A stretch of DNA of 64,000 nucleotides, from contig CAYHBS010000004.1 of assembly GCA_964354975.1 (NCBI GenBank), positions 3,614 to 67,613 of the forward strand, given 5' to 3'. Position numbers and translations under genes: made by a program. The notes under the pieces are model-generated. The model was not told where the DNA came from. It worked only from the letters and a program-made list of their open reading frames with translations, and made no database searches. This document shows positions 22,828 to 28,522 of the stretch, in pieces (positions within the stretch are counted from its first letter, which is position 1; every line of letters begins with the position of its first letter). The stretch comes from an uncultured Candidatus Saccharibacteria bacterium. Lineage in GTDB: Bacteria > Patescibacteriota > Minisyncoccia > Ryanbacterales > HO2-45-13.

Positions 22828-23580
22828 TCAGCTACTCGTTTTGGTAGATACGTCGGAAGCGGACGGAACTTTTGCAGGTACCGGGTGAGTGATACCGAGC
22901 ACCTCGTCCAATCGATCGAGTATCAGTTGAATATCACGCAAATGGTCACGTGTTTTTTTGCTTTCATCGATGTCAATGGTCACGACCCCGCGTAATACGG
23001 TGGTATGATTTCTCTGCGAAAGTGCGCCCCCAATATCTGGAAGGGATAGCTGTGTGCGTACGCGCGCGATCCAATAGAGAATATTGCGTGGATAGTTTTG
23101 ACGTCTCTTCTTTTGTCGCGAAAGTATTTCACTTTCTGGTATCTTAAAGTACCACGCGACGACCGCGAGAATACGATCTAATTCGGATGCTGATCGTAAT
23201 CTTTTCAACTCCCCGTCAGAAAACAAGTCGATGGATGGCCGTTTGACGGTATGATCACCCCTATCATCAGCGGTGCGCTCGTATGTCGCGCACGGTGAGT
23301 CCTCACGGTTTATGATACGCGCTTTCGATTGTTGATCTTTCTTCTTATCATGCTCGCCAATACGCTGTTGGGCAGTCAATGCTCCGTGGAACATACACCG
23401 ACCTTCATTCGTAGGATTTCCACATTGAAAGCAATACCTGCGTTTGAGTGTGGTCGGATCTTTTTGCGTGCACTCGCGACAGAGATCGTTTCCCCCCACT
23501 AAATCGATGCGTAGTAGCTGTGTGCCATCTTCGGTGCAATACCGATTAATGCCTCCAAACATGTACGCGTCCATATACAC
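22828..23580 (-). CDS. Zn-ribbon plus DnaA domain IV-like HTH protein
   Basis: C-terminal PRNILYWIARVRTQLSLPDIGGALSQRNHTTVL closely matches the DnaA box-binding signature (RDHTTVLHA). The N-terminus has CxxC...CxxC. Confidence 0.65.
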   Translation of the reverse strand: MYMDAYMFGGINRYCTEDGTQLLRIDLVGGNDLCRECTQKDPTTLKRRYCFQCGNPTNEGRCMFHGALTAQQRIGEHDKKKDQQSKARIINREDSPCATYERTADDRGDHTVKRPSIDLFSDGELKRLRSASELDRILAVVAWYFKIPESEILSRQKKRRQNYPRNILYWIARVRTQLSLPDIGGALSQRNHTTVLRGVVTIDIDESKKTRDHLRDIQLILDRLDEVLGITHPVPAKVPSASDVSTKTSS

Positions 23581-23631
23581 TCCTTAAGGTGCGTTTGATT
23601 GGGTTGTACCATTTTGTAATCAAAATGTACA

Positions 23632-23883
23632 TCAACGCTTGCGCGCGCGTTGAATCAGCCGTAGCTTGCGATCGCGGCGTAACTGCTTAATCGCATGTTC
23701 ACGCGTGAGTGCGTGTGATTTATTTTTACAGCGTTCGGTATACGCAATTGCGACTGGCGGGTGGGACCTCGTATAGCGTCCGCCCCTTCCTGCTTTGTGT
23801 GCGGTAAAACGGCGCGCGAGATTATCGGTACTTCCGGTATACAAACTCCCATCCTTACATTTGAGGATATATATGCACCACAT
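23632..23883 (-). CDS. GIY-YIG nuclease family protein (UPF0213/YhbQ-like)
   Basis: YILKCKDGSLYTGSTDNLARRFTAH is the GIY-YIG motif. Confidence 0.8.
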   Translation of the reverse strand: MWCIYILKCKDGSLYTGSTDNLARRFTAHKAGRGGRYTRSHPPVAIAYTERCKNKSHALTREHAIKQLRRDRKLRLIQRARKR

Positions 23884-23910: not shown

Positions 23911-24138
23911 TCATGGGGCGGGTTGTTTCAAAAAATTCGGGTGCCACGGCAATGTGGTGGTGTTGATTGACTCGCGAATGTTTGCTGGCAGACTCATGCG
24001 AATCACTCTTGCCGCTCCCTCAAGCAGGGTGCGATCGGCGCTCCCTTCATTTGAGCGATGTGCTAATTTCTCAATGAGAACAGCGCACCATTCGTTTTCC
24101 ATCGCACGAATCGTTTGAGATTGCTCTGAAGTACTCAT
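23911..24138 (-). CDS. Hypothetical protein
   Basis: ORF with its own intrinsic terminator hairpin (aaccgcccc/ggggcggtt) overlapping its stop. Confidence 0.4.
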   Translation of the reverse strand: MSTSEQSQTIRAMENEWCAVLIEKLAHRSNEGSADRTLLEGAARVIRMSLPANIRESINTTTLPWHPNFLKQPAP

Positions 24139-24165
24139 TGCATCCCTCCTTGTTCGTTGGGCACT

Positions 24166-24393
24166 CTACCGCCGAAGTGTCAGCGACGCAAGACCTTTAC
24201 GCAAGTTCTCGGTTGCACCACCATAGCGCTGACGAGTCGTCATGTCTCGTGGTGCGTCTCCGAGCTCGGCCTGCGCTATGCGCCGATTCAGCAGAGCTGG
24301 AGTTTCTAGAATTTTGATAGATCTCCTTTTCGACTTTCCGAGACTTTCAGTATTACGCCGTGACTTTTGAGTTCTTGGTAGTAACTTTTTCAT
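24166..24393 (-). CDS. Hypothetical basic protein
   Basis: 75 aa ORF, co-oriented with its neighbours. Confidence 0.35.
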   Translation of the reverse strand: MKKLLPRTQKSRRNTESLGKSKRRSIKILETPALLNRRIAQAELGDAPRDMTTRQRYGGATENLRKGLASLTLRR

Positions 24394-24726
24394 CTACTCC
24401 TCCTGGTGTCATCTGTAGTAATTCTATCACAACAAAACCACGCGCCAAACACGCGTCCGACGCACATAAAAAAATTTAGCGAGCACTGCGGATATTCCCA
24501 ATTTGCACGGAAGCGACTGCCATCGCATCTGCTGCAACGACATCTTGCTCGATCGCAAACTTTTGCACTTCCCCCCACACACCAATAAACGTCACGAGAA
24601 TAATTGCGAGCGTCCAATCGAGCCAGCGTTCGAGAAAGACTTTTTTGTTCATATGTATATTGTGGCACGTTCATCCAGCATGGCGAGCACGGGGTGTGCA
24701 AATCCCTAGAGCGAAGGTATGTGATC

Positions 24727-25452
24727 TTATTTTTCACCTGCGGCGTAGTTAAACGCCTCATGCCAGTTGATATTACGCGTGATATACATCACTCCCGAAA
24801 GTAATGCGAATAGGAGGAGCGAACCCGCGAGGAGCGCATACGTTTCAAGATGGAGCGTAATCAACAAATACGCATAAATAATTGTGAGGAGAAGTGCGAT
24901 GAGCATTCCCCCACTTTTTGTTTTGAGTATGAAATGACTATAGAGCGAAATCAGCGCCGTGGTCATGAGCGCAGCAATGATATACGCCGCTAAAAATCCA
25001 ATGTGCTCCATAAATGCGAGGAGTAATAGATAAAATTCCGCAAGTGAAAGCCCAACAAGTAAATATTGTATCGGGTGGAGCCGGAGGCGATAAAAAATTT
25101 CCATGAGGAAAAACGCAAGGAACGTAAGTACAATAAAAAGAATTGCATACTTCAGCACGCGATCAACAAGTCTATACACGCTTACACCGTTTTCATCAAA
25201 CCCCGGAAGTTTCCCGTGTATAAGCACTTTGGCCACGTCTCCACCTTGTCTCTCTACTGCGGCCCCTTGATATGCAATTCGGTCGTTGACCATTGACTGA
25301 ACAAATAGACTGGCAGCAAAACTCACAATCAAAATCACCCCAATCACGAAGATTTTTATAGCAAACGCAATATACGAAGCAAGCGGTGTGAGTGGCCCCA
25401 TGTACTTATGGTAACACCGGTAGGGCGGTAAAAGTAACGCCATCAAGGACAC
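24727..25452 (-). CDS. Polytopic inner-membrane protein, CreD-family-like
   Basis: Five to six predicted TM helices. The YRLVDRVLKYAILFIVLTF block resembles the CreD family. Real start may be MGPLTP at 25401. Confidence 0.5.
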   Translation of the reverse strand: MSLMALLLPPYRCYHKYMGPLTPLASYIAFAIKIFVIGVILIVSFAASLFVQSMVNDRIAYQGAAVERQGGDVAKVLIHGKLPGFDENGVSVYRLVDRVLKYAILFIVLTFLAFFLMEIFYRLRLHPIQYLLVGLSLAEFYLLLLAFMEHIGFLAAYIIAALMTTALISLYSHFILKTKSGGMLIALLLTIIYAYLLITLHLETYALLAGSLLLFALLSGVMYITRNINWHEAFNYAAGEK

Positions 25453-25497
25453 GAGTAATCACCTGTGTGACTTTAGGAGAGATGAAATAAACAAGAG

Positions 25498-25523
25498 AAA
25501 ACCAGGACGTTAGGTCCTGGTTT
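25498..25523 (-). terminator. Hairpin aaaccaggac-gtta-gtcctggttt followed by ttttctcttgttt on the minus strand
   Basis: 10 bp perfect stem and a U-rich tail in minus-sense. Bounds the structured segment. Confidence 0.5.
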
Positions 25524-25870
25524 GGTTGGCACCCGGAAGGTTGGCGCTCACGCAGTCAATGCTGCCAAGAGTCTCCGCTGAACACAACGAACCACTCGCG
25601 TCGCGAACACAGGAAAGAGAGAACATCACCATCAAGAAAAAAGAAACAAGGCGTTCGCTCGTATGGGAGTGCGCTCGCAAGCACATCCCTCGTACCCAAC
25701 TCGGTACCCGTTGATTGCCTGCGCTCACCAACCTTCCGGGGACTTTTGACCGTCTGTAGAGACGACCAAGAGCCTACAGCAATAATAGCGCGAGAGATAC
25801 AACAGAGCAACTCACCGGAATTGGTGGGCGCAGTGAAAACTTTCCCTAATACTCAATACCTAAATATGAA
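25524..25870. ncRNA. Candidate structured ncRNA downstream of the RT gene, flanked by a 13 bp inverted repeat and bounded by hairpin terminators (strand uncertain, minus favoured)
   Basis: No convincing ORF. IR cccggaaggttgg (25532-25544) / ccaaccttccggg (25728-25740). Internal stem-loops. A/T strand asymmetry. Confidence 0.3.
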
Positions 25871-25902
25871 AAAAGGGGTAGCTGGATTCCGCTACCCCTT
25901 TT
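25871..25902. terminator. Bidirectional intrinsic terminator (aaaaggggtagc-tggattcc-gctacccctttt plus gttttttt) overlapping the RT stop codon
   Basis: 12 bp stem flanked by A-run and T-run. Confidence 0.65.
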
Positions 25903-26836
25903 GTTTTTTTCTCCTCCGCGCAGCTTTCCTCGCTACACGGTATGTATGCACTAGTCGTGTAAAGGTTTGATCGAAGGGTTCTTCCCGCATAATCCCAGAT
26001 ATGACGCCCATTCTTCCAGAAAGTTCAGAGAACCCTTCCCCAGTCTCTAGGAATTTTCTGAGAAGTTTTTTGGTCTTCCAGCGAAATTGTTGTGGAACAA
26101 AAATACGTCCTCCAAGTTCTAGTCCCACGCCATTGACCACTACTGGACCTTTCATCAAATCCCATACGTGCGTCTTTCGATGACTAATAGAAAATCCAGC
26201 GGATTCGATAATGGATCGAATGTTGCTCCGTTTTTTCTCTCCTATCACTTCTGCCGCAGAAAACACAAGATCATCGATATAGCGCGTATAGGTCATACCA
26301 TACCTCGCGACCACAGGGGCAAGCACTCGATCAAGTACTGCGCTCGCATAGATATTAAACAGGTCGGGCGATGCGGGGGCGCCAACTGCAAGTCCACCAG
26401 AGCATGATGCACAATAATTCTCTAGAAATGTGCGTGCCATCTCTACTTCGGTGTTTAGGGGGAGTTGTCCTTCCAATGAAAGTAGAATCTCCGCGAGCGT
26501 ATTGAGATTGATGGTATGATACGCATCACGCAAATCAAGGTGATAGATATATCGATTTTGACGATGACGCGCAACGTGTCGTGCCGGGTTAGCCCCTGGG
26601 CGCGCTCCCGTGGCAAACCGCAGATCGGCGGGTAGTGAACGTAAGTGAGAAATGAGGCGCTTGTGAAGTTGTCTCATCGATGTATTCGGAGCTTCGATAA
26701 GACGCTTTTTCCTCGTACCACTAAGTGGATTGATGTCGTTGTAAAGGAACCTCCGAAACTTCGGAGGTGTTTTTGTTCTGGGCAACAAATCTATCAGATA
26801 CATCTGAAACACCTCCTCTATCCTTGGTTTGGCCAC
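25892..26836 (-). CDS. Reverse transcriptase, retron-type RT domain only (314 aa, GTG start)
   Basis: RT motifs: KKRLIEAPNTSMRQL, NPARHV...YIYHLDLRDAYHTI (NAxxH/motif A-like), GLAVGAPASPDLFNIY, TYTRYIDDLVFS (YIDD), VVNGVGL (VTG-like). No maturase or endonuclease domains. Confidence 0.85.
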   Translation of the reverse strand: MAKPRIEEVFQMYLIDLLPRTKTPPKFRRFLYNDINPLSGTRKKRLIEAPNTSMRQLHKRLISHLRSLPADLRFATGARPGANPARHVARHRQNRYIYHLDLRDAYHTINLNTLAEILLSLEGQLPLNTEVEMARTFLENYCASCSGGLAVGAPASPDLFNIYASAVLDRVLAPVVARYGMTYTRYIDDLVFSAAEVIGEKKRSNIRSIIESAGFSISHRKTHVWDLMKGPVVVNGVGLELGGRIFVPQQFRWKTKKLLRKFLETGEGFSELSGRMGVISGIMREEPFDQTFTRLVHTYRVARKAARRRKKQKG

Positions 26837-27283
26837 ACTCTATCATACACGCGCAGCGAATGATACTTTTCAAGATTCGAGAGAATATCACTCCGCTTTG
26901 CAAATCCCGACGCCTCGGTTGGGGCATGTGTTTTGCAAATCAAAAACCGCCATACTGCGGTTTTTGAGTAAAACTTCTGGCTGCCATGGGTGGGCGCTCA
27001 TTGGCACCGAATAATCAGGGACATCAATACGTTAAATGTTGCTAATACAGAATAGAGCAGCTCTTTTTTGTAAATTGGGTCTCCTGCTAGTGGAAGTTGG
27101 AACTGCGCTTTATAACACAACATCCCTACTGATGGATTTTTTTGATTTACGTGTCACTATTACCTAGCCAACGTTTATATGGGTTTCTGCGGGTAAAATC
27201 TCTCAGGAATATTCCGTAGCTTACATAACCTCTATCTTTATACTATGCTAAAAATGTGATGAAGCTTCAATACATAAGCTTGA

Positions 27284-28522
27284 ATGAATAAGAAAAAAAA
27301 GGTGATGATCTTCGTTGACGGAGAATTCATCCCATCCTACAGTGGGGCGACAAATAGATTTCACTATTTATCTGACGCCCTTCAACGATATACAAATACA
27401 GAAGTTGTTGTCGTTGTGTCCGACCGTGGTTGGACAGACACAAAGCTAATTAGAAAAGAGCGATTTAGGACATATTTGGTTCGCTCTGACTTATTTAAAA
27501 ACATTGACTTTCTGTTCCATCTAGTAAACAGGGAGCAACCTCAGATACTACAATTTGCTAACCTTGAGCTTGCCGTTCAACTAGGCATCCCCTTATCAGT
27601 AATGGGTGGTCAACACTTGGTGTATGAGGCGCATTATGATGATTTGGAATTCGCTAAATCTCTTGGTGCACCCAAAAAACAATTAGATAGCGTAAGGGGT
27701 TTAATGCATCACTTCGGCATTTATTTTGATAAGATTATTTCCCTCAGTAAGGATGACCACCTTGTTAAATCAAGATTTGGGGTTAGCGCGTCTCGCATCG
27801 CTATAGTGCCGAGCGGAATCAGACTAGATGACTTTCCACATAGTTGTTTTAAAGCGACCTCAAAAAAAATAATATTTCTAGGGAATTATTATTATGCCGT
27901 CAATTTAGCGGCTCTGAAACTGATTAGGAATTCTGTTTATCCAAAATTATCTGAGAAAGGATATATTTTTTATATTATTGGTGACATTCCATCCAAGATA
28001 AAGAAATCACTTGAGAAAAAAAACTTCGTAATCGTCGGCAAACAAAGTACGCTAAATACATACTTCAGTAATTCATTGTGCGCCCTTTCACCCGTTGCTG
28101 CTGGGTCCGGGATGAGAATTAAGATACTTGACTATTTGAATGCGGGGCTACCTGTCATCACAACCAGCCAGGGATCGCGGGGGTTCCTAAATAGAAACTT
28201 ATTGATGATTGAGGATGACATTAATAAGTTTTCCGAAATTATAGAGCTCATTGCAAGGTCAACTTTCACCTCTAGATTATTATCTGAGGCAGGCAGAAGG
28301 TTTGTTAGAAAACATATGTCCTGGAGTGTGGTCGCACAAAGCATGTCTGAAGAGTACGATAAAATTCTCCATAAAAGGAGGGTTACAAAGATCAATGCCC
28401 TGAATAGAATAAGTCAGCTAACTGCTCGTGATCCCGCGTGGCTTAAAGAAGTCATCAAAAAGGGGCGTTTTCAGGGAGCGAAACCCCATCTTTCGAAAAA
28501 ATCATATATAGTACTAAATTGA
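27284..28522 (+). CDS. Glycosyltransferase family 1/4 (GT-B fold)
   Basis: C-terminal GT1 signature (AAGSGMRIKILDYLNAGLPVITT). 412 aa. Confidence 0.8.
   Translation: MNKKKKVMIFVDGEFIPSYSGATNRFHYLSDALQRYTNTEVVVVVSDRGWTDTKLIRKERFRTYLVRSDLFKNIDFLFHLVNREQPQILQFANLELAVQLGIPLSVMGGQHLVYEAHYDDLEFAKSLGAPKKQLDSVRGLMHHFGIYFDKIISLSKDDHLVKSRFGVSASRIAIVPSGIRLDDFPHSCFKATSKKIIFLGNYYYAVNLAALKLIRNSVYPKLSEKGYIFYIIGDIPSKIKKSLEKKNFVIVGKQSTLNTYFSNSLCALSPVAAGSGMRIKILDYLNAGLPVITTSQGSRGFLNRNLLMIEDDINKFSEIIELIARSTFTSRLLSEAGRRFVRKHMSWSVVAQSMSEEYDKILHKRRVTKINALNRISQLTARDPAWLKEVIKKGRFQGAKPHLSKKSYIVLN

What the first reader, a model, noticed from the sequence alone, without database searches (positions are those of the whole stretch)
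25498..25902. About 340 nt structured, ORF-free segment immediately downstream of the RT: candidate partner ncRNA in a non-canonical position
The segment lies between the RT's terminator (25871-25902, which overlaps the RT stop) and a second strong minus-sense terminator hairpin (25498-25523) just before the membrane-protein gene. It is flanked by a 13 bp inverted repeat (cccggaaggttgg at 25532-25544 and ccaaccttccggg at 25728-25740) enclosing about 183 nt. The inverted repeat is flanked by direct gcgctcac motifs. It contains further stem-loops (for example GGGAuGUGC...GCACUCCC) and shows strong strand asymmetry, with the plus strand rich in A/AAC and the minus strand pyrimidine-rich. A terminal-inverted-repeat-bounded RNA next to an RT recalls retron a1/a2 architecture, but here it is downstream of the RT. 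RT, ncRNA and a polytopic membrane protein (24727-25452) in a row would form a retron-like tripartite unit. I compared it by eye with RNase P, SRP, tmRNA and 6S consensus features and found no match.
Basis: partly seen in the sequence, partly recalled or inferred. Interest (0 to 1): 0.75.

Follow-up and report, generated by a model that had tools for sequence, protein, structure and literature searches.

The report
Partner RNA of a retron-like RT
The gene-free stretch after the reverse transcriptase most likely encodes that enzyme's own structured partner RNA, a divergent member of an RNA family I could not find described, which accompanies hundreds of small retron-like reverse transcriptases in Patescibacteria (CPR) and has no conserved third gene.

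Summary
A perfect 13-bp inverted repeat (25532-25544 / 25728-25740), two minus-sense terminators, internal hairpins and an A-rich plus strand are all present, and no gene is called there.

The RT (25892-26803, minus strand, 303 aa) belongs to the retron RT superfamily. Its closest solved structures are Ec83 and Ec86 (E about 1e-26). It fits none of the 13 known retron types.

Across about 150 homologous CPR loci I found a conserved structured RNA on the RT strand. Its layout is a1, a YGAGG linker, hairpins P2 and P3, a long-range stem P4 enclosing a pyrimidine tract, UCAGCG, hairpin P5, a2, then CGCUGA. It usually lies upstream of the RT, but it lies downstream in at least 15 loci from several lineages. 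It is not in Rfam.

The window's element, read on the minus strand, matches the family's geometry, a1 sequence type, P3 shape, pyrimidine tract and UCAGCG. However, it has a weak P2, lacks the CGCUGA partner, and scores only 11.8 bits with my covariance model.

The CreD-like membrane gene is not a conserved partner, and neither is any other gene. So "partner ncRNA downstream" is supported and "tripartite unit" is not. DNA synthesis from the RNA is inferred, not shown.

The parts
25892..26836 (-). Retron-superfamily reverse transcriptase. The ORF runs from GTG 26836; the likely true start is ATG 26803, giving 303 aa. The YIDD catalytic motif is intact. The NAXXH-equivalent reads HVARH and the VTG-equivalent reads VNG.
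   Evidence: public gene call of 303 aa
25871..25902 (-). Intrinsic-terminator hairpin (12 bp followed by a U-run) overlapping the RT stop codon. It separates the RT transcript from the RNA unit downstream.
25782..25810 (-). Promoter-like TTGCTC-N17-TATTAT, a candidate own promoter for the ncRNA. It is weak, was read by eye, and falls below the scan tool's threshold.
   Evidence: Sequence, coordinates; inference only
25740..25774 (-). Strong hairpin immediately 5' of a1. Its role is unknown.
25726..25743 (-). a1, the 5' arm of the closing duplex (perfect core 25728-25740). Its sequence type, CCGGAAGGTTGG, resembles the a1 of L013, L093 and L009.
25692..25713 (-). Linker motif CAACGGG (the family has YGAGG) followed by P2, which here is only 5 bp with a 6-nt loop. 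This is weaker than the family's P2 of 7-10 bp with a 4-nt loop.
25665..25689 (-). P3 hairpin GGGAUGUGCU-UGCG-AGCGCA-C-UCCC. It has the family-typical shape of 10 bp with a 1-nt 3' bulge, preceded by GAGG and followed by CCAU. This is the part that the covariance model matches.
25582..25660 (-). P4 long-range stem (about 25660-25650 paired with 25593-25582). It encloses a pyrimidine tract (25649-25608) and a small hairpin (25607-25595). This is the putative template (msd-like) region.
25575..25581 (-). UCAGCGG, the family's most conserved 3' motif. It lies 162 nt after the start of a1 and 52 nt before the end of a2.
25552..25566 (-). P5, a small variable hairpin between UCAGCG and a2.
25529..25546 (-). 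a2, the 3' arm of the closing duplex (perfect core 25532-25544). The CGCUGA that follows a2 in 37 of 40 family members is absent here.
25489..25523 (-). Intrinsic terminator (10-bp stem followed by a U-rich tail) that ends the ncRNA unit 5 nt after a2.
24727..25452 (-). CreD-like membrane protein (241 aa; only its C-terminal 142 aa match the CreD model). It is a neighbour and not part of the system.

Best explanation
On the minus strand, about 25775 to 25490 is a separate small transcription unit. It begins after the RT's terminator and ends at its own terminator. It encodes a structured non-coding RNA of about 215 nt (a1 to a2, 25743-25529) that is the cognate RNA of the adjacent retron-superfamily RT.

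It is a divergent member of an RNA family that accompanies this CPR-specific RT clade. The family architecture is:
- a closing a1:a2 duplex;
- a YGAGG linker;
- two adjacent hairpins, P2 and P3, the likely RT-recognition module (equivalent to msr);
- a long-range stem P4 enclosing a pyrimidine-rich variable segment, the likely template (equivalent to msd);
- a UCAGCG motif, a small hairpin P5, a2, and usually a CGCUGA clamp.

Proposed mechanism, inferred by analogy with retrons. The RT binds P2/P3. The a1:a2 duplex brings the template's 3' end next to a priming nucleotide near a1. The RT then copies P5, UCAGCG, P4 and the pyrimidine tract into a short purine- and A-rich single-stranded DNA. 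That DNA would have the sequence of the window's plus strand.

What is shown: the structure, its linkage to the RT clade, the strand, and the variable placement. What is inferred: RNA expression, the priming chemistry, the cDNA product and any biological role. No effector gene belongs to the unit.
For: RT identity:
- PADLOC and NCBIfam match only retron-type RT models. All 28 aligned members hit many retron types at E 1e-24 to 1e-32, with none standing out.
- The closest solved structures are the retron Ec83 and Ec86 RTs, E about 1e-26, across nearly the full length.

The RNA family:
- 8 loci have a conserved element of about 300 nt directly downstream of the RT. It has a GGGTTTGGGA/TCCCAAACCC closing duplex, and 13 of 50 predicted pairs show compensatory changes.
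- The same architecture lies upstream of the RT in many other loci.
- In the P2/P3 module alignment of 27 sequences, all 15 pairs show compensatory changes.
- Covariance model R1 gives 71 hits across the 89 CPR loci searched, 69 of them on the RT strand.
- a1:a2 complementarity is locus-specific: median score 30 within a locus versus 19 across loci, p = 4e-23. The same holds for P4: 17 versus 13, p = 6e-12.
- The element lies downstream of the RT in at least 4 separate RT lineages.

The window element:
- The a1-to-TCAGCG distance is 162 nt and TCAGCG-to-a2-end is 52 nt. The closest relatives give 161/41, 158/41, 158/36 and 163/47.
- Its helix score of 39 is among the highest in the family. Only 0.7% of random anchors reach it.
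- P3 has the family's shape with the bulge, and a pyrimidine tract follows the P4 5' strand as in the family.
- The R1 best hit over the whole 128-kb search space falls exactly here on the RT strand: 11.8 bits, E = 0.097. Within the RT locus and both its gaps, E = 0.0028.
- There is no R1 hit on the RT strand in the upstream gap.
- Terminators bracket the unit.
Against: - The covariance-model score of 11.8 bits is far below typical members (20-67 bits). It is not significant window-wide, and with model R2 it ranks second.
- P2 is short with an atypical loop. The YGAGG linker is altered.
- The CGCUGA partner of UCAGCG is absent. It is present in 37 of 40 other members.
- There is no primary-sequence similarity to any other locus.
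- No close relatives of this lineage exist between 48% and 100% RT identity. Same-organism contigs are identical in this region, so there is no covariation evidence for this particular copy.
- The RT deviates at two nearly invariant family positions, S83N and N87H. The latter lies in the NAXXH-equivalent motif.
- There are no expression or cDNA data. The proposed promoter is weak.
- The RT family's VTG triplet reads (I/V)NG. No effector is present, so retron-style msDNA chemistry is an extrapolation.
Confidence: 0.68

Rival explanations
1. The segment is a decaying relic. It was once a functional family ncRNA, displaced downstream of the RT, and is now eroding (P2, linker and 3' clamp lost) and no longer used by the RT.
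For: Low model score. The CGCUGA clamp is missing and P2 is weak. The RT itself carries substitutions at two nearly invariant positions. A terminator separates the segment from the RT.
Against: The a1:a2 duplex is perfect over 13 bp and among the strongest in the family. P3, P4, the pyrimidine tract and UCAGCG are intact and at family spacing. The RT ORF and its YIDD motif are intact. No other copy of the RNA exists in the locus to serve the RT. The unit has its own terminator.
Confidence: 0.15
2. The segment is ordinary intergenic spacer. It holds two terminators for the RT and for read-through transcripts, plus a chance inverted repeat and incidental hairpins.
For: No sequence conservation with other loci. 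The covariance-model hit is marginal. About 0.4 perfect 13-bp inverted repeats with spacing under 400 nt are expected by chance in a 64-kb window (my estimate).
Against: The inverted repeat, UCAGCG and the P3-like hit coincide on the correct strand, in the correct order and at family spacing, next to an RT of exactly the clade that carries such an RNA. The rough joint chance is below 1e-6.
Confidence: 0.07
3. The segment is a structured 5' leader or attenuator of the CreD-like gene, with the 25523-25499 terminator acting as a regulated switch.
For: Only about 46 nt separate the terminator from the CreD-like start codon, which leaves little room for a separate promoter.
Against: The RNA architecture tracks the RT and not CreD. 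No other locus has a CreD-like gene. No riboswitch or leader family matches.
Confidence: 0.04
4. A plus-strand small RNA, a miniature inverted-repeat transposable element (MITE), a template repeat of a diversity-generating retroelement (DGR), or a group II intron fragment.
For: The plus strand folds slightly better (z = -4.9), and the 25871-25902 hairpin is followed by a T-run on the plus strand. The segment has terminal inverted repeats and an A-rich plus strand.
Against: - Family hits are on the RT strand in 69 of 71 cases.
- The plus-strand T-run is simply the complement of the Lys-rich C-terminal codons of the RT.
- There is no second copy and no variable-repeat-like partner anywhere in the window.
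- The GCGCTCAC repeats lie inside the arms, so there is no target-site duplication.
- The RT is not of the DGR or group II clade.
- There is no intron hit in Rfam.
Confidence: 0.04

Closest known systems
Bacterial retrons (RT plus msr/msd ncRNA; Mestre et al. 2020, PMC7736814; solved Ec86 and Ec83 complexes)
   Same: - The RT is closest to retron RTs in every library searched.
- The adjacent ncRNA is closed by a1/a2 inverted repeats.
- Two short hairpins are followed by a stem enclosing a variable region, which resembles the msr-then-msd layout.
- The NAXXH-equivalent (NVxRH) aligns with NAKIH of Ec83.
   Different: - No conserved effector gene or fused effector domain.
- The VTG triplet reads (I/V)NG.
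- The RT fits none of the 13 types better than the others.
- The ncRNA has extra conserved elements: a YGAGG linker, a UCAGCG...CGCUGA clamp enclosing a2, and a pyrimidine tract.
- The ncRNA is placed upstream or downstream of the RT depending on lineage. In the window it lies behind a terminator, 150 nt after the RT.
- Hosts are Patescibacteria (CPR).
- msDNA has not been shown.
Candidate type XI-like retrons of Bacteroidota with computationally predicted upstream ncRNAs (bioRxiv 10.64898/2026.05.14.725207)
   Same: Divergent retron-clade RTs for which a multi-stem-loop RNA flanked by a1/a2 was found only by de novo covariation analysis. The Bacteroidota RTs recovered by my genome scan are the nearest non-CPR relatives, at 25-30% identity.
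   Different: Those lineages have accessory modules (WYL, DnaB_C) and ncRNAs reported only upstream of the RT. My P2/P3 model finds nothing in 39 non-CPR loci, mostly from Bacteroidota.
Defence-associated RT plus ncRNA systems (DRT2/UG2; DRT3, whose required ncRNA lies downstream of the UG8 RT gene, as reviewed in PMC8632793)
   Same: An RT plus a structured ncRNA form the functional core, and in DRT3 the ncRNA sits downstream of an RT gene. DRT2 has no separate effector gene.
   Different: The RT here is only distantly related to these (Drt2 E about 1e-4 to 1e-5, Drt3a E about 1e-4 to 1e-6). Nothing tested here bears on rolling-circle or protein-primed synthesis.

Membership tests
Retron | RT belongs to the retron RT clade | tested here: met
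   Only retron-type models match strongly. The best solved relatives are Ec83 and Ec86 at E 1e-26 over residues 33-273. All scores are below NCBIfam's curated cut-offs for specific retron families.
Retron | [quoted passage not shown] | tested here: inconclusive
   The family has N-V-x-R-H aligned to Ec83's NAKIH, and (I/V)NG aligned to VTG. The window RT reads HVARH and VNG, so the Asn and the Thr are both replaced.
Retron | Contiguous ncRNA with a1/a2 inverted repeats enclosing msr-like hairpins and an msd-like stem | tested here: met
   The 13-18-bp a1:a2 duplex encloses P2, P3 and P4. Family-level covariation supports a1:a2, P2, P3 and P4.
Retron | ncRNA upstream of the RT and co-transcribed with it | tested here: not met
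   In the window the RNA lies 150 nt downstream of the RT stop, behind a terminator. The family majority is upstream, but at least 15 loci are downstream.
Retron | Associated effector gene or fused effector domain (tripartite system) | tested here: not met
   CreD-like gene is absent from all other loci. No recurrent neighbouring family among ORFs of 80 aa or more, or among ORFs of 35-130 aa. The RT is a single domain of about 300 aa.
Retron | Produces msDNA joined to a branching G through a 2'-5' bond | not testable with these tools
   Needs biochemistry.
CPR RT-associated ncRNA family (defined here) | a1:a2 duplex with a1-to-UCAGCG distance of about 145-420 nt and UCAGCG-to-a2-end distance of about 33-58 nt, on the RT strand | tested here: met
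   162 nt and 52 nt, with helix score 39.
CPR RT-associated ncRNA family (defined here) | P2/P3 module recognised by covariance models R1 and R2 | tested here: inconclusive
   11.8 and 11.6 bits. E = 0.097 window-wide (rank 1 with R1, rank 2 with R2) and E = 0.0028 within the locus. P3 matches; P2 is handled as a local end.
CPR RT-associated ncRNA family (defined here) | P4 stem followed by a pyrimidine tract, with its 3' strand near UCAGCG | tested here: met
   AGCGAAC pairs with GUUCGUU, followed by GCCUUGUUUCUUUUUUCU. The P4 3' strand ends 5 nt before UCAGCG, whereas it abuts UCAGCG in other members.
CPR RT-associated ncRNA family (defined here) | CGCU(GA) after a2, complementary to UCAGCG | tested here: not met
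   Absent in the window. It is present in 37 of 40 members, and two of the other exceptions keep GCUGA.
Diversity-generating retroelement | Template repeat paired with a variable repeat that differs at adenines, and an RT of the DGR clade | tested here: not met
   No second copy of the segment in the 64-kb window. The RT matches retron models, not DGR models.
Group II intron | Ribozyme domains V/VI and a maturase (X) domain in the RT | tested here: not met
   No Rfam hit at E up to 1 over 24000-28000. The RT is about 300 aa. Matches to group II RTs are weak: E 3.8e-8 and far below the cut-off, and E about 1e-7 to solved structures.
Housekeeping RNAs (RNase P, SRP, tmRNA, 6S) and any other Rfam family | Covariance-model match | tested here: not met
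   No match in the window segment. No match at the ncRNA positions of six family loci.
MITE or other element with terminal inverted repeats | Multiple copies and a target-site duplication outside the terminal repeats | tested here: not met
   Single copy in the window. The GCGCTCAC repeats lie inside the arms.

The most novel reading that the evidence does not exclude
The window carries one member of a large retron-like system that I could not find described. It is specific to Patescibacteria and has only two components. It pairs a compact RT of about 300 aa (482 clusters at 50% identity with E of 1e-30 or better) with its own conserved RNA, which has a1/a2 arms, P2-P5 and a UCAGCG clamp. It has no effector. 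The RNA gene has repeatedly moved or been duplicated around the RT: upstream, downstream, in tandem or on both sides. If these RTs make a purine-rich single-stranded DNA from the pyrimidine tract without any toxin partner, they would be either a new effector-less retron type or a non-defence use of retron chemistry in organisms with minimal genomes. They would also be a source of very small RT/ncRNA pairs for genome-editing tools.
Probability: 0.4. Interest if true: 0.75.

Novelty: new variant of a known kind. Interest (0 to 1): 0.6.

Why it matters
Retrons are defined as RT plus ncRNA plus effector, with the ncRNA upstream of the RT. This RT clade keeps the RT-ncRNA core but shows no conserved effector. 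It also tolerates the RNA gene on either side of the RT, even as a separate transcription unit.

That raises two points:
- It argues that RNA placement is not mechanistically constrained.
- It raises the question of what an effector-less retron-like pair does in episymbiotic bacteria with tiny genomes.

The RNA family has strong covariation support, is absent from Rfam and did not turn up in my literature searches. It could therefore be curated directly. The compact RTs of about 300 aa with defined RNAs are testable candidates for making DNA in cells. For the window itself, the practical outcome is an annotation: a minus-strand ncRNA gene at about 25490-25775 that belongs with the RT, and a CreD-like gene that does not.

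Tried and rejected
- DGR template repeat. BLAST of the segment against the whole window with a word size of 7 found no variable-repeat-like copy.
- Rfam. A permissive scan of 24000-28000 found nothing. Six family loci gave only tRNA, tmRNA and chance hits away from the ncRNA.
- Direct sequence similarity of the window's flanks to the flanks of 87 other loci: none.
- A sequence-only HMM built from the 8-locus subgroup reached only one further locus, so a structure-aware model was needed.
- Rebuilding the model from 71 hits (R2) did not raise the window's score.
- Microdiversity. Five contigs from the same organism are identical across the RNA. All 38 differences in L157 lie in the 3' part of the CreD-like gene, so they give no covariation information.
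- Upstream gap 26837-27283 as the canonical ncRNA site. It has no family motif and no model hit on the RT strand.
- Effector search. CreD-like and glycosyltransferase neighbours were searched by tblastn. Neighbouring ORFs of 80 aa or more were clustered, as were ORFs of 35-130 aa. No conserved partner emerged.
- Extension to Bacteroidota relatives: no RNA module found.
- Literature. Searches for retron plus Patescibacteria, CPR or Saccharibacteria, and for retron ncRNAs downstream of the RT, found no description of this family. The library is incomplete, so this is not proof of novelty.
- A full-length covariance model (a1 to a2) was not attempted.

Full report
**Observation**

The region lies between two minus-strand genes. 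One is an RT (ORF 25892-26836; public gene calls start at ATG 26803, giving 303 aa). The other is a 241-aa CreD-like membrane protein (24727-25452).

- The repeat finder confirms a perfect 13-bp inverted repeat at 25532-25544 and 25728-25740, with 183 nt between the arms.
- The terminator scan finds minus-sense hairpins with U-runs at 25902-25871, overlapping the RT stop codon, and at 25523-25499.
- Both strands fold better than shuffled controls. The z-score is -4.2 for the minus strand, -4.9 for the plus strand and -2.5 for the inverted-repeat-bounded core.
- The plus strand is A-rich, with AT skew of about +0.3.
- Two details need correcting. The GCGCTCAC motifs lie inside the repeat arms, not outside them. 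Four TTG-start ORFs of 62-84 aa exist mechanically, but no gene is called there on identical public contigs.

**What the RT is**

- Pfam gives RVT_1.
- PADLOC and NCBIfam match only retron-type RT models. All NCBIfam matches are below the curated family cut-offs.
- A profile of 28 homologues hits the solved retron RTs Ec83 and Ec86 at E about 1e-26 over nearly the full length. Group II intron and Drt2/Drt3a RTs follow far behind.
- All 28 members match many retron types about equally well, so this is a retron-superfamily clade outside the 13 named types.
- The retron NAXXH motif corresponds to NVxRH in the family and HVARH in the window. VTG corresponds to (I/V)NG.
- All close homologues come from Patescibacteria (CPR) genome bins or from metagenomes.
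- An exhaustive profile search finds 482 clusters at 50% identity with E of 1e-30 or better. Nearly all are single-domain proteins of about 300 aa.

**A conserved RNA travels with this RT clade**

I fetched 154 loci and compared the flanks of the RT.

- Eight loci share an element of about 300 nt directly downstream of the RT. It has a GGGTTTGGGA/TCCCAAACCC closing duplex, two adjacent hairpins, a long-range stem around a pyrimidine-rich variable region, and the motif CTTCAGCGG. Of 50 predicted pairs, 13 show compensatory changes.
- In many other loci the motif TCAGCG lies 40-120 nt upstream of the RT start and is followed by CCGCTGA. Reading these upstream regions shows the same architecture.
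- The architecture is a1, a YGAGG linker, P2 (7-10 bp with a 4-nt loop), P3 (about 10 bp with a 3' bulge), P4 enclosing a pyrimidine tract, UCAGCG, P5, a2, then CGCUGA.
- In an alignment of the P2/P3 module from 27 loci, all 15 consensus pairs have compensatory changes.
- The covariance model built from that alignment (R1) gives 71 hits across the 89 CPR loci searched, 69 of them on the RT strand.
- Most copies are upstream. At least 15 loci carry the module downstream of the RT. Several loci have two or three copies, or copies on both sides.
- A rough RT tree places the downstream cases in at least four separate lineages. The window's nearest relatives (L001, L093, L077, L088) have the RNA upstream.
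- Locus-specific complementarity supports the long-range helices. For a1:a2 the median score is 30 within a locus versus 19 for mismatched loci (p = 4e-23). For P4 it is 17 versus 13 (p = 6e-12).
- Rfam has no match at these RNAs.
- The module is not found next to the distant non-CPR RT relatives, which are mostly from Bacteroidota.

**Is the window's segment a member?**

Read on the minus strand it has the following parts:

| Part | Coordinates | Note |
|---|---|---|
| a1 | 25743-25726 | |
| Linker | 25713-25707 | CAACGGG |
| P2 | 25707-25692 | short |
| P3 | 25689-25665 | family shape with the single-nucleotide bulge, flanked by GAGG and CCAU |
| P4 5' strand | 25660-25650 | |
| Pyrimidine tract | 25649-25608 | |
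| P4 3' strand | 25593-25582 | |
| UCAGCGG | 25581-25575 | |
| P5 | 25566-25552 | |
| a2 | 25546-25529 | |
| Terminator | 25523-25489 | starts 5 nt after a2 |

- The a1-to-UCAGCG and UCAGCG-to-a2 distances (162 and 52 nt) match the closest relatives: 161/41, 158/41, 158/36 and 163/47.
- The a1 sequence CCGGAAGGTTGG resembles the a1 of L013, L093 and L009.
- With the family's search geometry, its helix score of 39 is reached by 0.7% of random anchors. It is reached by none of the other 26 TCAGCG sites in the window.
- With filters off, the best R1 hit in the whole window on both strands is exactly here, on the RT strand. It scores only 11.8 bits (E = 0.097). Within the RT locus and both its gaps, E = 0.0028. 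With R2 it scores 11.6 bits and ranks second.
- The upstream gap has no copy on the RT strand.
- Against membership: P2 is weak, the linker is altered, and the CGCUGA partner of UCAGCG is missing, although 37 of 40 other members have it. There is no primary-sequence similarity to other loci. No relatives close enough for copy-specific covariation exist.

Taken together, the coincidence of independent family features, in the right order, spacing and strand, next to an RT of the right clade that has no other RNA copy, makes chance very unlikely. I read it as a divergent member, or possibly a partly eroded one.

**What is not part of it**

- No CreD-like gene lies within about 3 kb of the RT in any other locus.
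- Clustering of neighbouring ORFs finds no family shared by more than 4-5 of 88 non-redundant loci. The only small-ORF "family" is the conserved RNA itself, translated.
- The unit is therefore RT plus RNA, not a tripartite system.

**Mechanism (inferred)**

By analogy with retrons (PMC7736814, PMC8632793), the steps would be:

- P2/P3 would be the RT-binding msr-like part.
- a1:a2 would juxtapose the template's 3' end and the priming nucleotide.
- The RT would copy P5, UCAGCG, P4 and the pyrimidine tract into a purine- and A-rich single-stranded DNA, which would have the sequence of the window's plus strand.

In the window the RNA lies behind the RT's terminator. A weak promoter-like TTGCTC-N17-TATTAT sits at 25810-25782, so it is probably a separate transcription unit. 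In the 8-locus subgroup a1 starts 10-15 nt after the RT stop, so there it is probably co-transcribed with the RT. Expression, priming chemistry, product and biological role are untested.

**Comparison and novelty**

- The closest known kind is the retron. The differences are the lack of an effector, the altered VTG triplet, the extra conserved RNA elements, the variable RNA placement, and the CPR hosts.
- Candidate type XI-like retrons with predicted upstream RNAs (bioRxiv 10.64898/2026.05.14.725207) are a methodological parallel and possibly the nearest non-CPR relatives.
- DRT3 is a precedent for a required ncRNA downstream of an RT gene (PMC8632793), but it is only distantly related.
- Literature searches found no description of this CPR family. 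The library is incomplete.

I rate the finding as a new variant of a known kind.

Noticed in passing
L128 1059-1200 and 2613-2753; also L117, L079, L075, L126: Direct repeats flank the RT or RT-plus-RNA cassette. In L128 a 142-nt block (terminator, promoter-like sequence and ribosome-binding site) occurs at 94% identity just before the RT start and again after the RNA, just ahead of the next gene, as if the cassette had been inserted by recombination. Shorter repeats of 27-44 nt, mostly terminator-like, flank the RT in other loci. This may mean the RT-RNA cassette is mobile.
   Followed up: partly
L002 (2460, 2813), L088 (112, 482), L001, L016, L114, L098, L029, L014 and L020 (three copies each); L011 and L005 (copies on both sides of the RT): Many loci carry two or three copies of the RNA's P2/P3 module, in tandem or on both sides of the RT. 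In L011 a 56-nt stretch of the module is 95% identical upstream and downstream of the RT.
   Followed up: partly
L091 4361-4714; L116 1858-2801; L025 1777-1849; L009 879-1458; L121 about 400 nt downstream of the RT stop: A tmRNA gene and tRNA genes lie within about 0.2-2 kb of several RT loci. A tRNA-like sequence follows the RNA in L121. This could indicate integration near tRNA or tmRNA genes, or it could reflect the compact CPR genomes. The nearest tRNAs in the window are about 12 kb away.
   Followed up: no
window 24742-24979: Contig L157, a strain variant, is identical to the window over about 7.4 kb, then has 38 substitutions packed into the last 240 nt of the alignment, at the 3' end of the CreD-like gene. 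This looks like a recombination boundary or a hypervariable C-terminus.
   Followed up: no
window 24727-25452: The CreD-like protein is 241 aa. Only residues 90-231 match the C-terminal third of the 428-position CreD model. It is a truncated or minimal CreD homologue.
   Followed up: no
window 26837-27283: A 447-nt gene-free gap lies upstream of the RT, between divergent genes. It contains a strong hairpin (26940-26967, 11 bp), which is terminator-like in the RT sense, and a 10-nt direct repeat TTTGCAAATC (26897 and 26932). It has no family RNA module and its content is unexplained.
   Followed up: partly
window RT residues 83 and 87 (numbered from GTG 26836): The window's RT has N and H where at least 90% of aligned homologues have S and N. 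The second position is the Asn of the NAXXH-equivalent motif. The same locus has an atypical RNA (weak P2, no CGCUGA clamp). This could be co-variation of the protein with its RNA, or joint decay.
   Followed up: no
window, unspecified positions: In the null sampling for long-range helices, a few random anchors reached scores of 56-59, far above the 99th percentile of 34. Other long inverted repeats therefore exist elsewhere in the window. I did not locate them.
   Followed up: no
L040-L071 (Flavobacterium, Chitinophaga, Cyclobacteriaceae and others): The nearest non-CPR relatives of the RT (25-30% identity) are in Bacteroidota and lack the CPR RNA module. They may correspond to the type XI-like lineages reported in bioRxiv 10.64898/2026.05.14.725207.
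   Followed up: partly
window 22828-23883: Downstream of the CreD-like gene lie a small stand-alone GIY-YIG protein (83 aa, 23632-23883) and a 250-aa protein with a DnaA C-terminal helix-turn-helix domain and a weak zinc-ribbon match that is below the Pfam cut-off (22828-23580). I did not examine them further.
   Followed up: no
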